A stretch of 14,933 bases of DNA from a virus: UHGV virus genome UHGV-0050054, one strand, 5' to 3'. The notes below the pieces were generated by a model. The model was not told where the DNA came from. It ran no database searches and was given only the letters and a program-made list of their open reading frames with translations. Positions 3,369-11,277 of the stretch are shown here, in pieces. Made by a program: the position numbers and the translations under genes. Numbering within the stretch: the first letter of the stretch is position 1; every line of letters begins with the position of its first letter.

Positions 3369-3851
3369 TTATTTGATAAGAAGTGAAGGTTTCCCAACTT
3401 TGAGTTGAGCGCCGGGGATATTTATTCCTGCTTTTAGTTGGTGTTTGATTGCCAGTTTGTCGGCTTTAATTGTCGTTTCAAACTCAACGTATTCAGGAGG
3501 AAGGGCGCTTGAGTCGATTATTTCTACAATTTCTGACGGTTTGCGGATTGTTACCTGGTGAATACCTGCTCTAATCTTTTTCTTGCCTACCATTTCAAGC
3601 GATGACGCTATATACGCCATAATGCTGTCAATCTTATTTTGAATTACTGCGGCTCGCTCATTTAGTGACTTTGCCTCTTCCTTGAGGCGTTCAGCATAAC
3701 CAGTTTCATTTTTAATGACGGAAAGAAGTTGCTCTATTTTATCGGTAAATTCTCCTTCCATGCCTTCTATTGTGTCAGCAATCATCTCTGGTTCTAAATC
3801 TGAATCCATCAATTTTGCGTATTCATTGGCAATTTCATATAGTTTGCTCAC
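3369..3851 (-). CDS. Phage protein, siphovirus Gp157-like (tentative); GTG start at 3851
   Basis: Track ORF 3369..3857; GTG at 3851 has GGAGG 6 nt upstream. Size and position directly downstream of recT fit the Gp157 family that often accompanies RecT/Erf; family call from memory. Confidence 0.6.
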   Translation of the reverse strand: MSKLYEIANEYAKLMDSDLEPEMIADTIEGMEGEFTDKIEQLLSVIKNETGYAERLKEEAKSLNERAAVIQNKIDSIMAYIASSLEMVGKKKIRAGIHQVTIRKPSEIVEIIDSSALPPEYVEFETTIKADKLAIKHQLKAGINIPGAQLKVGKPSLLIK

Positions 3852-4746
3852 TGGCAACCTCCAGTTTCGCTTTGCATTCTGCGTAAATGGCTTGTACGTT
3901 CTGCTGCAATTTCATTCCAGATGTCAGGCGATATGCTTCTGCAAAATATCGCTTCAAATCATCCATGTTTTCAGCCTGAGCCATTTCATCACAAAGAAGT
4001 TGTGCTTTATCCGTTATTTCCTGCTGGCGTTTCCGTTCATCTTCGCGGATATCTTCCTCTGATTTGTGCGGCATAACTGGTTCAGTCCACACACCTTCTT
4101 CTTCGTTTAGTACGTGAATAGCACTATCAAGACGTGATGCCTTAGGCCAATACTTGCTTGCACGCTTTACGACCGTCTTTCGCGCCATCTCATTCCAGTG
4201 ATTTACCCATGGTCCTTTATCGCTGAATGCCGCCTTGCTTGTTTTCCTTACAGCCTCAATTTCAGCCAGACTCATCTCTTCCGTTAGATAATCACCTGCT
4301 GGCGTCTTAACTGTGCAGTAAACGCCAACGATATCACCACGATCACCGAAGGCGTTGTATTTATGGGTTGGTGCTTTATCAAGCCCGTTTGACTCATAGG
4401 TATCGTTAGCATGAACAAGTTTTGCCTGACCCCATGAGATAACACCAGACTCCATTGCAATATGGAGCAATCCCATATAACTGATATCAAGGCACACCAT
4501 GCCGTCGCGCGGAACCAGATAAGCCAGTTTGCTAGCCGGGTTTAAGGTGATGCCGATCGCCGCTACATTGATGATGGCGTTCTGTGCGCTGGTTGGATTT
4601 GCCAGTGCTGTTTTAGCCAGGTAATCGTTTTTCTGGAAATACTGAATTGCAAACTGGCTTTCCTTAGCCCATGTCACCGTCTGTTCAGTCAATGCTCCGC
4701 AGAATAACTGCTCTTGCTGTTTAACGAATTCAACGATATTGCTCAT
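3835..4746 (-). CDS. recT: RecT-family single-strand annealing recombinase
   Basis: 303-aa ORF with GPWVNHWNEMARKTVVKRASKYWP, matching the conserved RecT core as I recall it from Rac RecT (GPWVTHWEEMAKKTAIRR...). GGAG RBS; ATGA overlap with the upstream gene. Confidence 0.85.
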   Translation of the reverse strand: MSNIVEFVKQQEQLFCGALTEQTVTWAKESQFAIQYFQKNDYLAKTALANPTSAQNAIINVAAIGITLNPASKLAYLVPRDGMVCLDISYMGLLHIAMESGVISWGQAKLVHANDTYESNGLDKAPTHKYNAFGDRGDIVGVYCTVKTPAGDYLTEEMSLAEIEAVRKTSKAAFSDKGPWVNHWNEMARKTVVKRASKYWPKASRLDSAIHVLNEEEGVWTEPVMPHKSEEDIREDERKRQQEITDKAQLLCDEMAQAENMDDLKRYFAEAYRLTSGMKLQQNVQAIYAECKAKLEVASEQTI

Positions 4747-5427: not shown

Positions 5428-6396
5428 TTAGTAGGTTATTTTTGTTGCGAATACTTCGCCTTTTACGATGGCTGTTATGATATTTTTAGCAACATCTTCT
5501 GATGCACCAACCTTGATAAGGTCAGCAAGTATTTTGTTATTTACTTCTTTCCGGTGAGCTTTATCCTTTGCTCTACGCTCTTCTTCTTCCTTGATTCTTT
5601 TTTCTTCTGCTATTCTGGCTTGCTCTTTTGCTTCAGCCTCGCGACGGATTCGTTCAGCCTCCTCCTGTGCTTTTCTGCGTTCTGCTTCAATTGCTGCCTG
5701 CTTTTCTCTTTCAGCTCGTTCTGCTGCCTCTTTTGCTTCGCGCTGTGCTCGCTGCTCGGCTTCAATGCGTTCACGCTCTGCACGTTCCGCTGCGGCCTTA
5801 GCTTCTGCTTCTCGCCTTGCTGCTGCTTCAATTTCGGCTTTTGCCTTTGCTTCGGCTTCTGCTCTGGCTTTCTCTTCAGCTTCTCTTTTTAAGCGTTCTT
5901 CATGCTCTCGCTTTTCCTGCTCCGCTTTGAGTCTTGCCTCTTCTCTTTGGCGGTCAAATTCGCGATCCATCAAAATAGCTATTTCATGGTCAGACTCAAT
6001 TTGCTTTGCGAGAGCTTCAGCTGCTGCCTTAGCTTCTTCTTCGGCTTTAATCCGCGCCTGTTCTTCCTCATAATCAGTAAGAGGCTGGCGTGCCTTGGCT
6101 TTCAGCTCATCAAGGCGATAACGCACTGTCTTGCGGTTGGCATCAATTAGCTTTGGAATTTCCTTCAGTTCAGCAACAAGGTCTTTGCCAAGACCATCGA
6201 GATATGTTTTCGTCTGCGCAACTTTATACGCCAGAGAAGCGATCTCTTTTCTGCCCTTTGCCGTTGTGATATCAGGCACAAAGGACATAACTTCACGTTC
6301 AACCTTTTGGAGAATTTCTTCAATCTGGTCAGCAGACTGAAATACAATCATTGCATTTGCTTTTTCAATAACAACTAAATCTGTTACTTCACTCAT
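5428..6396 (-). CDS. Hypothetical protein (322 aa) with a long E/R/K/A-rich predicted single alpha-helix
   Basis: Track ORF 5428..6450; preferred start ATG 6396 with GGAGG 4 nt upstream. About 150 residues are runs such as EAEAKAKAEIEAAARREAEAKAAAERAERE; globular-looking N- and C-terminal parts. Confidence 0.65.
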   Translation of the reverse strand: MSEVTDLVVIEKANAMIVFQSADQIEEILQKVEREVMSFVPDITTAKGRKEIASLAYKVAQTKTYLDGLGKDLVAELKEIPKLIDANRKTVRYRLDELKAKARQPLTDYEEEQARIKAEEEAKAAAEALAKQIESDHEIAILMDREFDRQREEARLKAEQEKREHEERLKREAEEKARAEAEAKAKAEIEAAARREAEAKAAAERAERERIEAEQRAQREAKEAAERAEREKQAAIEAERRKAQEEAERIRREAEAKEQARIAEEKRIKEEEERRAKDKAHRKEVNNKILADLIKVGASEDVAKNIITAIVKGEVFATKITY

Positions 6397-6408
6397 ATAT
6401 CCTCCGTC

Positions 6409-6435
6409 AAAAAAATCGCCCTCACATTGGAGGGC
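6409..6435 (-). terminator. Intrinsic terminator-like hairpin just upstream of the 322-aa gene RBS
   Basis: Minus strand reads GCCCTC-caatgt-GAGGGC followed by GATTTTTTTGA (6-bp GC stem, 7-nt T run). Confidence 0.55.
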
Positions 6436-6530
6436 AAAGAAGATTTCCAATAATCAGAACAAGTCGGCTCCTGTTTAGTTATGAGCGACATTGCTCCGTG
6501 TATTCACTCGTTGGAATGAATACACAGTGC

Positions 6531-6743
6531 TTATTCGCGAGCTTTGAGCATGGCATCAGCAATAAAGTAGGCATCATCTGCTAATTCTTTGTACTGTGGT
6601 GAATTCTGTCCACCGCCAAAGGAATGTCCGTCCCATCTGCGCACTATTGCTGCCATAGCCTTAGCAGCGAAGTAATCACGTAATGTCGCATCACTTGCCA
6701 TTTCTGGGCGTTTGATATCTGCTTCATAAAACTCGCACATCAT
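6531..6743 (-). CDS. Hypothetical protein (70 aa)
   Basis: Complete ORF; ATGA overlap with the upstream gene; GGGAGGTGA upstream. Confidence 0.5.
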   Translation of the reverse strand: MMCEFYEADIKRPEMASDATLRDYFAAKAMAAIVRRWDGHSFGGGQNSPQYKELADDAYFIADAMLKARE

Positions 6744-7018
6744 TCACCTCCCAGAGCCTTGCTGATTGCTGCCTTGGCTCGTTTGTATTCGGTTAACTCT
6801 CTGCACCCTTCGTCATGCTCGTAAAGGAAGACAAGCTCTTGCAGTGCTTCAAGCAAATCAGGAGCTGCTGCTATCAGTAGCGCATCCTCCCTTTCATTTC
6901 TTGTTGCTGCTTCAATGTATGTGTCACCAATCGTCACACCATGGAACGTAGTCATCATCTCGTTGACGTTTCTAACCGTGTACTTCCATTTACCAGGCGT
7001 ACCCTTAAACTCTTTCAT
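6740..7018 (-). CDS. Hypothetical protein (92 aa from ATG 7018; track gives GTG 7024)
   Basis: AGAGGTGG RBS about 6 nt before ATG 7018. Contains IAAAPDLLEALQELV. Lies just downstream of hairpin-box copy 1. Confidence 0.55.
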   Translation of the reverse strand: MKEFKGTPGKWKYTVRNVNEMMTTFHGVTIGDTYIEAATRNEREDALLIAAAPDLLEALQELVFLYEHDEGCRELTEYKRAKAAISKALGGE

Positions 7019-7026
7019 ATCCACCT

Positions 7027-7065
7027 CTGTTGTTTATGCCAAAAATAAAGGCCGACTATGCGGCC
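7027..7065 (-). terminator. Hairpin box copy 1, terminator-like on the minus strand
   Basis: Minus strand: GGCCG-catagt-CGGCC then TTTATTTTTGGCATAAACAACAG. Overlaps the stop of the 156-aa gene. Near-identical copy at 7570..7605. Confidence 0.5.
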
Positions 7066-7535
7066 TAGTAGAATACCCAATTTTCTGTTTCTTGGTTGTG
7101 TCCAAAGTTATATTCAATATCTGGTGTTGATGTATCAATATTCTTCATCCCATCAACAAGAGTTGATACAACAGCAAAATCTTGTTTGATTCTCATTAAA
7201 TGGTATTTCTTCCGGCGCAATAAACTCTCAATGGCAAGTTTCTTCGTTGGGAATGCAAAAGATCTTTCTGCATTTTTTGCTACTTTCTTAATTGCATATC
7301 TATTTCTCCTTTGTTTCCATTCCTGTAACCACTGATTTGGTGCTGGTTTAAAATCAACAATCCAATGCGCAGGAACCAACCATGCATAATGCTCTGTCTG
7401 ATGAAAAGCTATATATTGAAGTGCGAATATTTTGATTCCATCTTCTTCAACTGTCGCCTGGAATCTCCAGAAAACAGGCATTCCATCATGTTCAGTTTCT
7501 GATTCAGGAAAAGGTACGCTCCATGATTTTGTCAT
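7065..7535 (-). CDS. Hypothetical protein (156 aa) encoded in a low-GC cassette
   Basis: Complete ORF with GAGGTGAGAT RBS; visibly AT-richer than neighbours; basic central region (KQRRNRYAIKKVAKNAERSF...LLRRKKYHLMRIKQ). No family recognised. Confidence 0.6.
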   Translation of the reverse strand: MTKSWSVPFPESETEHDGMPVFWRFQATVEEDGIKIFALQYIAFHQTEHYAWLVPAHWIVDFKPAPNQWLQEWKQRRNRYAIKKVAKNAERSFAFPTKKLAIESLLRRKKYHLMRIKQDFAVVSTLVDGMKNIDTSTPDIEYNFGHNQETENWVFY

Positions 7536-7569
7536 ATCTCACCTCAAATAATTCAGTGCAGTGTTTATT

Positions 7570-7605
7570 CTGTTGTTTATGCCAAAAGAAGGCCGACTAT
7601 GCGGC
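7570..7605 (-). repeat. Hairpin box copy 2 (slightly degraded copy of 7027..7065)
   Basis: CTGTTGTTTATGCCAAAAGAAGGCCGACTATGCGGC differs from copy 1 at 2-3 positions; 4-bp stem and a weaker T run. Lies between the Cys-rich ORF and the 156-aa ORF. Confidence 0.45.
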
Positions 7606-7615
7606 ATAATTATTT

Positions 7616-7804
7616 TTAACTATCATCAATACATGGCACTTTATTCCAGTCGATATCGTTTTTATTGTCGTCCCACATGTCTTTGTTTTTGTATTTCTCG
7701 CTACATCCTAGGCAAATGTTGTATGGCCTACCGATAAGGTTTAACGAAATACGTTGCATTTCATTTGATTCAAACATGTATCCACAGAACTGACATTTAT
7801 GCAT
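7616..7804 (-). CDS. Small Cys-rich protein (62 aa), putative zinc ribbon
   Basis: CxxC at residues 4-7 and 31-34; starts 4 nt after the N stop with GAGGGGTGAG upstream; low-GC like the adjacent 156-aa gene. Confidence 0.55.
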   Translation of the reverse strand: MHKCQFCGYMFESNEMQRISLNLIGRPYNICLGCSEKYKNKDMWDDNKNDIDWNKVPCIDDS

Positions 7805-7807
7805 ATC

Positions 7808-8140
7808 TCACCCCTCATACAGTAGCTTACTGCCTAATTTCATTTTCTGGCGACCAACACAAGTCACACCCATTTCACTGCGTGGCTTGCTGTACCATGT
7901 GCGCTGATTCTTGCGCTCAATACGTTGCAGGTTGCTTTCAATCTGTTCGTGGTATTCAGCCAGCACCGTAAGGTCTATCGGATTCAGTGCGCTTTCTACT
8001 CGTGATTTAGGCTTTCGAGTCAGCGAGAGAATTTTGCGGGTGTCTGGCTTTGCGCTTACCCCAACCAACAGGGGATTTGCTGCTTTCCATTGAGCCTGTT
8101 TCTCTGCGCGACGTTCGCGGCGGCGTGTTTGTGCATCCAT
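7808..8140 (-). CDS. N: Antitermination protein N
   Basis: 110-aa product MDAQTRRRERRAEKQAQWKAANPLLVGVSAKP... matches lambda N as recalled over most of its length, including the Arg-rich N-terminus; AGGAG RBS; nutL upstream. Confidence 0.9.
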   Translation of the reverse strand: MDAQTRRRERRAEKQAQWKAANPLLVGVSAKPDTRKILSLTRKPKSRVESALNPIDLTVLAEYHEQIESNLQRIERKNQRTWYSKPRSEMGVTCVGRQKMKLGSKLLYEG

Positions 8141-8165
8141 CTGGATTCTCCTGTCAGTTAGCTTT

Positions 8166-8385
8166 GGTGGTGTGGTGGCTGGTAGTCTAGCTCCAGCTTG
8201 TTGAGTCTCATTCGGAGGGGTATAACCGGCACCCCAGCGATTTTTCCATGCGACAACGTGCGCGTTATGGCGGCCTTATCGCCCGCGGCTCCCCATCTCG
8301 TCCACGCTATTGCTAGCGTTGGGAGCGCTTCACCGCTCAACAGTAGGTAAGCACTTGCCAGTGACTAGCTGGCTTCACCACACCC
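8166..8385 (-). promoter_or_regulatory. N-leader long-range inverted repeat enclosing a GC-rich core of about 170 nt
   Basis: Arms near 8167..8193 and 8360..8384 are complementary (perfect 9-bp GGTGTGGTG/CACCACACC core plus imperfect extension). Position matches the lambda N-leader hairpin region. Confidence 0.4.
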
Positions 8386-8408: not shown

Positions 8409-8439
8409 GCCCTTCTTCAGGGCTTAATTTTTAAGAGCA
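8409..8439 (-). promoter_or_regulatory. nutL: nutL (boxA + boxB)
   Basis: Minus strand reads GCTCTTAA-AAATTAA-GCCCTGAAGAAGGGC: boxB is the canonical lambda hairpin, boxA-like element 7 nt upstream. Confidence 0.85.
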
Positions 8440-8569: not shown

Positions 8570-8600
8570 TGGAAAAAGAAAACCCGACACTAAGGTCGGG
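8570..8600 (-). terminator. Intrinsic terminator downstream of cI
   Basis: Minus strand CCCGAC-cttagt-GTCGGG followed by TTTTCTTTTTCC, beginning 33 nt after the cI stop. Confidence 0.7.
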
Positions 8601-8632
8601 TTATTGTTGTGTGCTTTAGAGTGGTGAGGCTG

Positions 8633-9292
8633 TTAACTAAATGTCTCTTCAGGCCACTGGCTGGCGATAACTTTCCCTACTACGGAACAGCTATCATTGC
8701 ATGGAATCATTGGATATTGCTGGTTTAGTGGCTGTAGGAACACCTGACCGCTATCCCTGATCAGTTTCTTGAAGGTAAACTCGTCACCACCAAGTCTGGC
8801 TATGCAGAAATCACCTGGCTCAACAGCCTGCTCAGGGTCAACGAGAATTAACATCCCGTCAGGAAAGCTTGGCTTGGATCCTGTTGGCGCGGTCATGGAA
8901 TTACCTTCAACTTCAAGCCAGAACGCACAATCACTGGCTTTTTTGGTTGTGCTGACCCATCTCTCCGCATCACCTTTGGTAAAGGTTCTAAGCTCAGGCG
9001 AGAACATCCCGGCCTGAACATGAGAAAAAACAGGGTACTCATATTGTTTTTTAACGGGGGCAGATGAGTATTCGCCAACAGGTGAAAATGTACCGTCGTG
9101 GTTGAATGAGACGTTATCAATACCAAGGTATTTAAACACCACACCAATCTCGTCAAGAGATGGATGACGAGATCCGCGCAACCAGTGACCAATTCCACCC
9201 TGCGTCATACCAAGCTCTTCAGCTAACTTCTCTTGAGTTATGCCGAGCTCTTTCATTCTGGATCTAGCCAGTTCATACCATTTCATTTTCAT
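8633..9292 (-). CDS. cI: CI-type prophage repressor (N-terminal HTH, C-terminal LexA/S24-like domain)
   Basis: C-terminal half ([38 protein letters not shown]...[28 protein letters not shown]...[11 protein letters not shown]) matches lambda CI as recalled, apart from a few substitutions; the N-terminal HTH differs from lambda. Track ORF begins at a TTG (9334); ATG 9292 or 9286 is more likely. Confidence 0.9.
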
Positions 9293-9301
9293 ACCCTTAT
9301 T

Positions 9302-9375
9302 ATTACGCTCTGTACTAAAACCATCCATGCACAAGATGTATTTTTTGTTTGCATTCTAAAAGTACATATCGTATT
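9302..9375. promoter_or_regulatory. Putative OR operators
   Basis: ATTACgctctGTACT at 9302..9316 and AGTACatatcGTATT at 9361..9375, 60 bp apart; the second overlaps the PR spacer and -10. Confidence 0.4.
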
Positions 9376-9738: not shown

Positions 9739-10032
9739 ATGGTTCGTGCAAACAAACGCAACGAGGCTCTACGAATCGAGAGTGCGTTGCTTAACAAAAT
9801 CGCAATGCTTGGAACTGAGAAGACAGCGGAAGCTGTGGGCGTTGATAAGTCGCAGATCAGCAGGTGGAAGAGGGACTGGATTCCAAAGTTCTCAATGCTG
9901 CTTGCTGTACTTGAATGGGGTGTTGTCGACGACGACATGGCTCGATTGGCACGACAAGTTGCTTCGATTCTCACCAATAAAAAACGCCCGGCGGCAACCG
10001 AGCGTTCTGATCAAATACAAATGGAATTTTAA
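9739..10032 (+). CDS. cII: Transcriptional activator CII
   Basis: 97-aa product MVRANKRNEALRIESALLNKIAMLGTEKTAEAVGVDKSQISRWKRDWIPKF... matches lambda CII as recalled; AAGGA RBS. Confidence 0.92.
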   Translation: MVRANKRNEALRIESALLNKIAMLGTEKTAEAVGVDKSQISRWKRDWIPKFSMLLAVLEWGVVDDDMARLARQVASILTNKKRPAATERSDQIQMEF

Positions 10033-10329: not shown

Positions 10330-11277
10330 ATGAGCAATACAGCAAAAATCTACGATTTCAGCGCCGCACACGAGCGCAGGAGCAACAGGATGGAGAACCA
10401 GAAAACTGGTTACATTCCGTTGTACCGGAGCATTCTGAAACAGTCATGGGCGAAAGATGTTTATCTTCGCACCCTGTGGGAAAACCTTCTCCTGAATGCC
10501 GCCAGAAAGCCATACAAAGCGAATTTCAAAGGTCATGAATGGCATCTGCAACCCGGTCAACTGGTTGTGACAGCAGCTGATTTAGGTCTTCAGTTATGCG
10601 ACAGGCATGGCAAGCCGGCAAGCCGTGATCAGGTTGAGCGGATGCTTCAGGTTTTTGTGAAAGAGGGGATGATCACCATTGATGGAGAGAAGCAAAAAGG
10701 TCGTGTGATCACCATCACAAATTACCATGAATATGCTCAAAAAATGGACAATTCACCCGCACATGAAGCCGCACAAACAACCGCACATGATGCCGCACAT
10801 GATGAAGCCAGTAATGGCGCGGCTTTCAGCGTACATACCGCACATGAAAGCGCACATGAAGCCGCACAAACAACCGCACATCATGAACAAGAAGGTATTA
10901 ACAAGAATATAAATAATACCCCCCTACCCCCCAATGGGGGAGGCGATGGGCAGGTTAAACATGAACGTCGCAAGGCAGAACGAATCGACTACGAATCCTT
11001 CCTGAACGCCTACAACACCGAAGTCGGTGACAGACTGCCACACGCTGTTGCGGTCAACGAGAAACGCAAACGCCGCCTGAAGAAAATCATCCCGCAACTG
11101 AAAACGCCAAACGTGGACGGTTTCAGAGCGTATGTCAGGGCGTTTGTGCATCAGGCCAAGCCGTTTTACTTCGGAGACAACGACACTGGCTGGACGGCAG
11201 ATTTTGATTACCTGCTGAGGGAAGATTCGTTAACGGGAGTTCGGGAAGGGAAGTTTGCAGACAGGGGGATTGCATGA
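10330..11277 (+). CDS. Replication initiator, lambda O-like N-terminus, with internal iteron origin
   Basis: 315-aa product; [10 protein letters not shown] resembles lambda O MTNTAKILNF; repeated [10 protein letters not shown] segments coincide with DNA iterons; stop overlaps the helicase start. Confidence 0.85.
10758..10945. repeat. Putative replication origin: iterons, AT-rich tract, GC-rich hairpin
   Basis: Identical 31-bp blocks at 10758..10788 and 10851..10881; at least 5 GCACATGA motifs; AT-rich 10886..10918; CCTACCCCCC-AAT-GGGGGAGG hairpin at about 10925..10945. Same layout as lambda ori inside O. Confidence 0.6.

What the first reader, a model, noticed from the sequence alone, without database searches (positions are those of the whole stretch)
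7027..7605. Two copies of a 36-bp hairpin box exactly bracketing one gene
CTGTTGTTTATGCCAAAA..GGCCGACTATGCGGCC occurs at 7027..7065 and, with 2-3 changes, at 7570..7605. On the minus strand each reads as a GC hairpin followed by a T run and then the RBS of the next gene. They may be module-boundary terminators or recombination scars left by cassette exchange.
Basis: seen in the sequence. Interest (0 to 1): 0.55.

Follow-up and report, generated by a model that had tools for sequence, protein, structure and literature searches.

The report
Shared terminator-linker box between lambdoid phage genes
The two copies are real: they are a short hairpin-plus-T-run sequence that many lambda-like phages carry just downstream of gene N, at the joints between interchangeable accessory genes, so this is an ordinary, largely known kind of phage module boundary.

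Summary
The repeat is confirmed. Copy 1 lies at 7027-7065 and copy 2 at 7570-7605. They share identical 18-nt and 15-nt blocks, separated by ATAAA in copy 1 and GAA in copy 2. They flank a 156-aa gene of unknown function (933W L0079, phrog_1636) in the leftward early operon downstream of N.

On the transcribed minus strand, copy 1 looks like a plausible intrinsic terminator: a 6-bp stem of -9.2 kcal/mol followed by UUUAUUUUU. Copy 2 is degraded to a 4-bp stem of -5.0 kcal/mol.

The box is not special to this genome. It matches in 232 phage records and in more than 120 IMG/VR contigs. Wherever an N gene was detectable (117 of 117 instances), the box lies 188-1694 bp downstream of it. It joins 11 unrelated upstream gene ends to 11 downstream contexts in 26 combinations.

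Variant sites inside the box occur in all four combinations. Phage mEp213 differs from this window by exactly one repeat period (543 bp).

Lambda carries a hairpin-less version directly after ral. In Sf6 the box sits about 10 nt from the annotated boundary sequence bsq4.

Best reading: a terminator-type intergenic linker that also serves as a homology patch for cassette gain, loss and exchange. Termination and recombination activity are inferred, not shown. It is a further example of a known kind and of modest interest.

The parts
7027..7065 (-). Box copy 1. On the minus strand it reads: hairpin AGGCCG-CAUAGU-CGGCCU (7066-7049), T-run UUUAUUUUU (7048-7040), then GGCAUAAACAACAG, which runs into the RBS GAGGTG of the next gene.
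   Evidence: D13; terminator-like site 7066-7049; -9.2 kcal/mol, z -2.56.
7570..7606 (-). Box copy 2, the variant with GAA in place of ATAAA and a C-to-A change at the outer stem base. The hairpin is reduced to 4 bp and the T-run is UUCUUUU.
   Evidence: -5.0 kcal/mol, z -0.71. One search shows an alternative 8-bp pairing, UUAUGCCG with UGGCAUAA. The scan does not call it a terminator.
7551..7569 (-). First 19 nt of the conserved lambda-type intergenic sequence that normally follows the box (minus strand AATAAACACTGCACTGAAT..). It is carried along with copy 2.
   Evidence: Alignment with lambda and Sf6.
7526..7550 (-). Junction in front of the 156-aa gene. It holds the RBS GGTGAGAT and an 8-nt remnant of a Dewey/933W-type N 3' end (TTATTTGA). 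It is a direct repeat of 7795-7819, the junction between the N stop and the 62-aa gene start.
   Evidence: D15, 76%, spacing 269.
7065..7535 (-). Cargo between the two boxes: a 156-aa ORF of unknown function, equivalent to 933W L0079 and matching phrog_1636.
   Evidence: It matches in 1109 of 5426 complete E. coli genomes.
7616..7804 (-). 62-aa CxxC...CxxC ORF (phrog_19863) between N and box copy 2. It equals mEp213_050.
6740..7018 (-). 92-aa ORF (phrog_1273) directly downstream of box copy 1. It equals mEp213_049 and Dewey CDS0043.
6405..6537 (-). The rest of the lambda ral-ea10-type conserved intergenic sequence. It includes the tL2a-like terminator (6437-6416) and a second hairpin, and begins at GAATAAGCACTG right after the stop codon of the 70-aa ORF.
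   Evidence: (-12.9 kcal/mol). Sf6 annotates the homologous stretch as tL2A and bsq4.
7808..8140 (-). Antiterminator N of the lambda type, with the N36 arginine-rich motif.
   Evidence: PF11438, 3.8e-23.
8409..8439 (-). Lambda-type nutL: boxA TGCTCTTAA at 8439-8431 and boxB GCCCTGAAGAAGGGC at 8423-8409. It lies downstream of a pL-like promoter at 8507-8479.
   Evidence: (I11). Identification as nutL rests on established knowledge of the lambda sequence.
3835..4746 (-). RecT-family single-strand annealing protein of the same phage. It is the candidate enzyme for short-homology exchange.
   Evidence: PF03837, 2.7e-32.

Best explanation
The box is a roughly 40-bp intergenic linker of the lambdoid pL operon. 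It consists of a Rho-independent terminator-type hairpin plus U-tract, followed by about 14 conserved bases that lead either into the next gene's RBS or into the longer conserved ral-ea10-type intergenic sequence.

It sits at the 3' end of whichever accessory gene occupies the slot downstream of N. During lytic growth, N-modified polymerase loaded at the lambda-type nutL is expected to read through it. Unmodified transcripts would stop there. These two steps are inferred.

The same sequence is present in many phages between unrelated genes. It therefore also acts as a patch of homology where phage RecT/Red-beta-type or host RecA recombination swaps, adds or deletes gene cassettes.

This genome has two copies because two adjacent cassettes each end with the box: [62-aa gene + box] and [156-aa gene + box]. 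Phages with one copy, such as mEp213 and Dewey, correspond to the products or substrates of exchange at the box or at the neighbouring N-stop/RBS junction.
For: 1. Anatomy. Copy 1 is called terminator-like and folds at -9.2 kcal/mol with an 8-of-9 U tail. It lies on the strand of N and all neighbouring ORFs, and the hairpin overlaps the stop codon.

2. Distribution. The box matches in 232 phage records, including lambda, Sf6, Stx phages, P22-like phages and a Klebsiella phage. It also matches in at least 120 IMG/VR contigs.

3. Position. In all 117 instances with a detectable N gene, the box lies 188-1694 bp downstream of N on the same strand. The best-matching N query differed among all 10 used, which included lambda-, 933W-, HK620- and BTP1-type proteins.

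4. Combinatorial flanks. There are 11 left and 11 right flank classes in 26 combinations. Homology ends at the base of the stem, GCGGCC(T).

5. Exchange inside the box. Position 6 (G or A) against right-half type (hairpin or ral) gives counts of 76, 50, 5 and 3. The middle segment (ATAAA or GAA) against the last base (C or A) gives 60, 4, 3 and 2.

6. Indels bounded by the repeat. mEp213 matches window 6738-8200 over 920 bp instead of 1463 bp, so it lacks exactly 543 bp, the copy-to-copy spacing. Its single box has copy 1's left flank and copy 2's variant and right flank. Dewey has only copy 1.

7. Other box-bracketed cargo. Examples are L090, L100, mEp213 (a whole second N module between two boxes) and Sf6 gene 34.

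8. Feasibility. Identical boxes of 39-41 bp exceed the minimal pairing segments quoted for RecA (31-34 bp) and Red-beta (23-27 bp) in PMC3945230. The phage encodes RecT.

9. Precedent. Short conserved boundary sequences have been proposed to mediate lambdoid mosaicism (Clark et al. 2001, as cited in PMC3029335 and listed in PMC2327257). Sf6 annotates bsq4 and tL2A next to the box.
Against: No experiment shows termination at the box.

Copy 2 and the lambda ral-type version have weak stems (-5.0 and -4.1 kcal/mol).

The terminator scan as a whole is not enriched over shuffles (22 sites found against 15.6 +/- 4.1 expected).

Stem variants show wobble changes or disruptions but no compensatory double changes, so there is no covariation support.

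The four-gamete patterns could partly be recurrent mutation, and the IMG/VR instances are not independent samples.

The window's two copies share only 18-bp and 15-bp perfect runs, which is below the quoted pairing minima. The window's own arrangement could also have arisen by a crossover inside the 156-aa gene rather than in a box.

The same 156-aa gene also occurs without a downstream box, in 933W and L130.
Confidence: 0.75

Rival explanations
1. The box is only a conserved terminator, a tL1-like stop for polymerase not modified by N. Its presence at many different joints reflects random illegitimate recombination followed by selection for intact gene boundaries (the Hendrix-type model). Homology in the box plays no part.
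For: The right edge of homology coincides with the base of the stem in about 10 independent contexts, as expected if the hairpin must be kept. The literature favours illegitimate recombination at most mosaic joints (PMC3029335). The neighbouring joint at 7536-7550 has only about 11 nt of identity.
Against: Near-identical nucleotide sequence in all contexts indicates one shared piece of DNA, not repeated independent joints. All four combinations of variant sites occur within 20-30 nt. The mEp213/window indel is exactly one repeat period. Weak-stem versions persist.
Confidence: 0.15
2. The two copies are a target-site duplication, or the ends of a small mobile element (MITE, integron-like cassette or homing element) that carries the 156-aa gene.
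For: The copies are direct repeats flanking a single gene.
Against: A 36-39-bp duplication is far longer than transposon target duplications (general knowledge). No transposase, integrase or homing nuclease lies between or beside the copies. The same gene occurs with one box or with none downstream (933W, L130). The box flanks many other genes, usually as a single copy.
Confidence: 0.02
3. The conserved bases after the hairpin (UUUUGGCAUAAACAACAG) belong to a functional RNA, for example a 3'-UTR-derived small RNA or a processing or stability element. That function, rather than termination or recombination, is what is conserved.
For: The 14 nt after the T-run are as conserved as the hairpin itself in all contexts, which termination alone does not explain.
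Against: No Rfam family matches at gathering threshold. The permissive search gave no match at the box, only one sub-threshold CrcZ match at 7629-7692. The folds are not exceptional compared with shuffles (z about -1.2). The conservation is equally explained by recent spread through recombination.
Confidence: 0.06

Closest known systems
Lambdoid 'boundary sequences' (bsq; Clark et al. 2001 on HK620; annotated in Sf6 as bsq4 at NC_005344 24156-24268)
   Same: A short, nearly identical intergenic sequence shared by many lambdoid phages at joints between unrelated modules, and proposed as a site of homologous exchange. The box is physically contiguous with the bsq4/tL2A stretch in lambda and Sf6.
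   Different: The Sf6 bsq4 annotation stops about 10 nt short of the box, and no record examined annotates the box itself. The box also behaves as a separable unit: it occurs without the rest of that sequence (window copy 1, mEp213, mEp043), and the rest occurs without the box (933W, window 6405-6537).
Lambda pL-operon intrinsic terminators (tL1, and tL2a downstream of ral; read through by N-modified polymerase)
   Same: Same operon, strand and position class, with hairpin plus U-tract anatomy. Lambda carries the homologous T-run and downstream bases directly after the ral stop codon.
   Different: Lambda's version lacks the 5' half of the stem (-4.1 kcal/mol). To my knowledge it is not one of the named lambda terminators. 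The tL2a homologue is a different hairpin, at 6416-6437 in this window.
PeSL cassettes of T4-type phages (Arbiol et al. 2010, PMC2839356; Comeau et al. 2014, PMC4122927)
   Same: Small repeated regulatory motifs containing a terminator stem-loop, concentrated among non-essential genes. Recombination between them causes insertion, deletion and replacement of single genes.
   Different: PeSLs include a strong early promoter and occur many times per genome in hyperplastic regions of virulent myoviruses. This box has no promoter, occurs once or twice per genome, and is confined to the slot downstream of N in temperate lambdoid phages. There is no sequence relationship.
Morons (Juhala et al. 2000)
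   Same: An accessory gene with its own terminator, inserted between conserved phage genes.
   Different: No promoter-like site precedes the 156-aa gene. It appears to be an ordinary member of the pL transcript.

Membership tests
Rho-independent (intrinsic) terminator | A G+C-rich stem-loop on the transcribed strand | tested here: met
   Copy 1 has a 6-bp stem with 5 G-C pairs, at -9.2 kcal/mol and z -2.56. Copy 2 has only 4 bp at -5.0 kcal/mol, which is weak.
Rho-independent (intrinsic) terminator | A U-tract immediately 3' of the stem | tested here: met
   UUUAUUUUU in copy 1 and UUCUUUU in copy 2.
Rho-independent (intrinsic) terminator | Measured transcript 3' ends or termination at the site, suppressed by N | not testable with these tools
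   This needs a reporter assay or 3'-end mapping.
Rho-independent (intrinsic) terminator | Stem maintained by compensatory changes among homologues | tested here: inconclusive
   Variants are wobble changes (GCGACC, GCAGCC) or disruptions (GCGTCC, GAGGCC, Sf6 GGCAG). There are no double compensatory changes.
Lambdoid boundary sequence (bsq) | A short conserved sequence lying between non-homologous modules in several lambdoid phages | tested here: met
   11 x 11 flank classes in 26 combinations over 128 instances; 232 phage records.
Lambdoid boundary sequence (bsq) | Evidence that exchange occurs within the sequence | tested here: met
   All four combinations occur at two pairs of sites within the box. 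mEp213 differs by exactly one repeat period and carries a hybrid box. Recurrent mutation is not excluded.
Lambdoid boundary sequence (bsq) | Being one of the sequences already listed or annotated as bsq | tested here: not met
   Sf6 bsq4 spans locus positions 1379-1491, whereas the box lies at 1501-1541. The original HK620 paper could not be read.
Moron | Own promoter upstream of the inserted gene | tested here: not met
   No sigma-70-like site on the minus strand in 7536-7615.
PeSL | Composite strong early promoter plus stem-loop, in many copies in T4-type hyperplastic regions | tested here: not met
   No promoter, only two copies in 14.9 kb, and a lambdoid context.
Transposon / MITE / integron cassette | Terminal inverted repeats or attC sites with an associated transposase or integrase, and a short target duplication | tested here: not met
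   The copies are direct, not inverted. No such enzyme domains are found in neighbouring ORFs.

The most novel reading that the evidence does not exclude
The box, together with the neighbouring N-stop/RBS junction, could be more than a passive patch of homology. It could be a selected docking site that makes the slot downstream of N work like an integrase-free cassette array. In this reading, phage single-strand annealing proteins (RecT, Red-beta, Erf) use the roughly 40-bp linker to plug in, stack or drop single accessory genes at high frequency. Divergent variants of the linker, such as the ATAAA and GAA forms seen here, would be kept within one genome to prevent self-deletion.
Probability: 0.2. 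Interest if true: 0.55.

Novelty: new member of a known kind. Interest (0 to 1): 0.3.

Why it matters
It gives a concrete, countable example of how lambdoid phages exchange single accessory genes next to N. One roughly 40-bp terminator-type linker is found with at least 11 different genes on each side.

That makes the old dispute over homologous linkers versus illegitimate recombination testable at a defined site. It also helps annotation: the box marks the end of the variable slot after N.

It does not reveal a new mechanism. The cargo genes, which include the very common 156-aa Stx-phage protein, remain of unknown function.

Tried and rejected
- Rfam gave nothing relevant: no match for the whole window at gathering threshold, and only a sub-threshold CrcZ match for 6300-7900 in permissive mode.
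- Pfam, NCBIfam, PHROGs and PADLOC gave no function for the 156-, 62-, 92- and 70-aa ORFs.
- A fuzzy-regex scan for extra diverged copies timed out. I replaced it with blastn-short.
- The count of 124 E. coli genomes with at least 80% coverage looked like many double-box genomes. It is an artefact: the query's two boxes both align to a single box. L130 has one box followed by the box-less conserved sequence. No complete E. coli genome carries the window's 156aa-box-92aa junction at 80% coverage or more.
- The species-representative genome scan found the exact hairpin version only in Shimwellia pseudoproteus, so it added little on taxonomic breadth.
- A literature search for tL2/ral terminator papers returned nothing in the held library. 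The Clark 2001 and Casjens 2004 papers were not readable, so the comparison with bsq rests on the Sf6 GenBank annotation and on secondary citations.
- I looked by eye for a promoter reading of the box on either strand and rejected it. The candidates were TTGGCA as a -35 on the minus strand and TTGTTT..GACTAT on the plus strand; neither has an acceptable -10, and one search lists nothing there.

Full report
**Setting**

The window is the early region of a lambda-like temperate phage. The minus strand carries these features, in order:
- a cI-type repressor (8633-9334; HTH plus S24 peptidase)
- a pL-like promoter (8507-8479)
- a lambda-type nutL, with boxA at 8439-8431 and boxB GCCCTGAAGAAGGGC at 8423-8409
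- N, with the lambda N36 motif (7808-8140)
- a string of small ORFs, RecT (3835-4746) and other recombination-region genes.

The plus strand carries the replication genes O, with iterons, and a DnaB-type helicase. The closest sequenced phages for 6500-8200 are Dewey, CurroJimenez_Bas106 and mEp213. Each covers only part of that stretch, which already shows a mosaic.

**Observation**

- Copy 1 is at 7027-7065 and copy 2 at 7570-7605.
- They share an identical 18-nt block and an identical 15-nt block.
- The blocks are separated by ATAAA in copy 1 and GAA in copy 2.
- The base after the 15-nt block is C in copy 1 and A in copy 2.

Shuffles of the window give 0.02 expected matches for the 18-mer at up to 3 mismatches, against 2 found.

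The ORF between the copies (7065-7535, minus strand, 156 aa) ends with a TAG whose G is the first base of the copy 1 hairpin. Copy 2 ends 34 nt before its ATG.

**Anatomy on the transcribed strand**

Copy 1 reads AGGCCG-CAUAGU-CGGCCU, then UUUAUUUUU, then GGCAUAAACAACAGAGGUGGAUAUG.
- The hairpin folds at -9.2 kcal/mol, and only 3 of 200 shuffles fold as well.
- The consensus scan calls it terminator-like.
- The last bases are the RBS and start codon of the next ORF (6740-7018).

Copy 2 has lost the outer stem pairs, leaving 4 bp at -5.0 kcal/mol.
- Its U-tract is shorter.
- Its best fold pairs UUAUGCCG with UGGCAUAA around the small hairpin.
- The scan does not call it.

For comparison, the tL2a-like hairpin at 6437-6416 folds at -12.9 kcal/mol and the t_oop-like hairpin at 10008-9981 at -17.2 kcal/mol. 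Copy 1 is therefore a plausible moderate intrinsic terminator, and copy 2 probably is not. These are predictions only.

**What the box is homologous to**

A 53-nt query around copy 1 matches 232 phage records: lambda, Sf6, many Stx phages, the mEp and HK phages, P22-like Salmonella phages and a Klebsiella phage.

In lambda the homologous bases lie directly after the ral stop codon. The sequence there is ...TGATAGTGGCCTTTATTTTTGGCATAAATAACAG, and it continues into the conserved ral-ea10 intergenic sequence with a second hairpin and tL2a. In lambda the 5' half of the stem is replaced by ral coding sequence, and the fold is only -4.1 kcal/mol.

In Sf6 the full box lies between gene 34 and the stretch annotated 'bsq4; boundary sequence' and 'terminator tL2A'. 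That annotation stops about 10 nt short of the box.

The alignment shows that the window holds this lambda-type intergenic sequence in three pieces:
- box plus its first 19 nt at 7551-7605
- box alone at 7027-7065
- the remainder, starting at GAATAAGCACTG, at 6405-6537.

Genes lie between these pieces. In 933W the 156-aa gene is followed by the box-less remainder.

**The box as a shared joint**

Together with the fetched phage loci this gave 128 instances with enough flank to classify.
- The 40 nt beyond each edge fall into 11 left and 11 right classes, in 26 different combinations.
- Upstream genes include ral, an Nmad5-family gene, Sf6 gene 34, the 156-aa gene, the 62-aa gene, mEp043 gp47 and others.
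- Downstream is either the lambda-type conserved sequence, or the 156-aa gene junction, or directly the RBS of one of several small genes.
- On the upstream side, homology ends at the base of the stem, GCGGCC(T), in nearly all classes. The stop codon sits before, on, or (for Nmad5) inside the hairpin loop.
- In all 117 instances where an N gene could be detected, the box is 188-1694 bp downstream of it on the same strand. The best-matching N query differed among all 10 used, which included lambda-, 933W-, HK620- and BTP1-type proteins.

The box is therefore a positional landmark of the pL operon. It is not tied to one N specificity or to one cargo.

**Evidence for exchange at the box**

1. Two pairs of variable sites inside the box show all four combinations.
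   - Position 6 (G or A) against the hairpin-type or ral-type right half gives counts of 76, 50, 5 and 3.
   - ATAAA or GAA against the last base C or A gives counts of 60, 4, 3 and 2.
2. mEp213 matches window 6738-8200 in two pieces spanning 920 bp instead of 1463 bp.
   - It therefore lacks 543 bp, exactly the spacing between the copies.
   - Its single box has copy 1's left flank together with copy 2's internal variant and right flank.
   - This is the structure expected from a crossover in the shared 18-nt block, in either direction.
3. Dewey has only copy 1. It lacks about 270 bp, namely the 62-aa gene, copy 2 and the 19 nt.
   - That indel is bounded by a second repeat, the N-stop/RBS/ATG junction CATATCTCACC at 7526-7550 and 7795-7819 (D15).
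4. Other genomes carry box-bracketed cargo:
   - L090: Nmad5 gene, box, 156-aa gene, box, 95-aa gene.
   - L100: 62-aa gene, box, a 149-aa gene-34-like gene, box, 156-aa gene. Here the repeat extends to about 73 nt.
   - mEp213: two boxes about 1.8 kb apart enclosing a second, HK620-type N module.
   - Sf6-type phages: ral with a half box, then gene 34, then a full box.

**Mechanism proposed**

Shown by the data: the conserved sequence, its position, its combinatorial flanks, and indels bounded by it.

Inferred:
- The hairpin and U-tract stop polymerase that is not modified by N, and N-modified polymerase reads through. This follows the lambda paradigm and is established knowledge, not tested here.
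- Identical 39-41-bp boxes in co-infecting phages or resident prophages serve as substrates for RecT/Red-beta/Erf-type annealing or for RecA. The quoted minimal pairing segments are 23-27 bp for Red-beta and 31-34 bp for RecA (PMC3945230), and this phage encodes RecT.

The two copies within this genome share only 18-bp and 15-bp perfect runs. This should make self-deletion inefficient.

The exact route to the present arrangement cannot be fixed. A crossover inside the 156-aa gene between an L066-like and a Dewey-like parent would also produce it.

**Comparison with known systems**

The closest concept is the lambdoid 'boundary sequence' of Clark et al. 2001 (cited in PMC3029335 and PMC2327257), annotated in Sf6 next to this box.

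The functional analogue in virulent phages is the PeSL promoter-terminator cassette of T4-type phages, which mediates indels of single genes by recombination (PMC2839356, PMC4122927). The present box lacks a promoter and is restricted to one genomic slot.

It is not a moron in the strict sense, because there is no promoter. It shows none of the defining features of transposons, MITEs or integron cassettes.

**Verdict**

The element is a further example of a known kind of lambdoid module-boundary sequence with terminator anatomy. It is widespread and ancient enough to be present, in degenerate form, in lambda itself.

Interest is modest. It offers a clean, quantifiable site for testing linker-mediated cassette exchange, but nothing about it would surprise a lambdoid-phage specialist.

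Noticed in passing
window 7526-7550 and 7795-7819: A second direct repeat (D15; core CATATCTCACC) forms the N-stop/RBS/ATG junction in front of both the 62-aa and the 156-aa genes. The copy at 7536-7552 keeps an 8-nt remnant of a Dewey/933W-type N 3' end. Dewey differs from the window by about 270 bp, which is one period of this repeat.
   Followed up: partly
window 7579-7612 (minus strand): In copy 2 the C-to-A change removes the outer stem pair. It also creates an 8-bp alternative helix (UUAUGCCG with UGGCAUAA) that encloses the small hairpin and the U-tract. The GGCA variant recurs with three different upstream genes (the 62-aa gene, L035 and L064).
   Followed up: partly
L135 (mEp213, JQ182733 28300-32400): mEp213 carries two different N genes in tandem (lambda/HK244-type and HK620-type). 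The second N module and its neighbours lie between two copies of the box, with a 469-nt gap without annotated genes upstream of the second N.
   Followed up: partly
L130 2529-2544 (E. coli NZ_CP185938 prophage): An Nmad5-family 'putative nucleotide modification' gene lies immediately upstream of the box. It reads through the 5' half of the hairpin stem and uses the TAG in the hairpin loop as its stop codon.
   Followed up: no
window 7065-7535: The 156-aa protein (933W L0079, phrog_1636) matches in 1109 of 5426 complete E. coli genomes, usually right after N. It has no Pfam, NCBIfam or PADLOC match.
   Followed up: partly
window 5428-6450: A 340-aa ORF similar to Sf6 gene 33 (labelled 'TolA' in some RefSeq annotations) contains many imperfect internal repeats (families D2-D4, around 5558-6042), suggesting a repetitive, low-complexity protein.
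   Followed up: no
window 10745-10899: A cluster of 12-nt-spaced CCGCACATGA-type repeats lies inside the O replication gene. These are presumably the origin iterons.
   Followed up: no
window 8581-8602 and 9981-10008: Two strong hairpin terminators. One reads as terminator-like on both strands just below the repressor gene (Timm-like position). The other is a t_oop-like hairpin at -17.2 kcal/mol.
   Followed up: no
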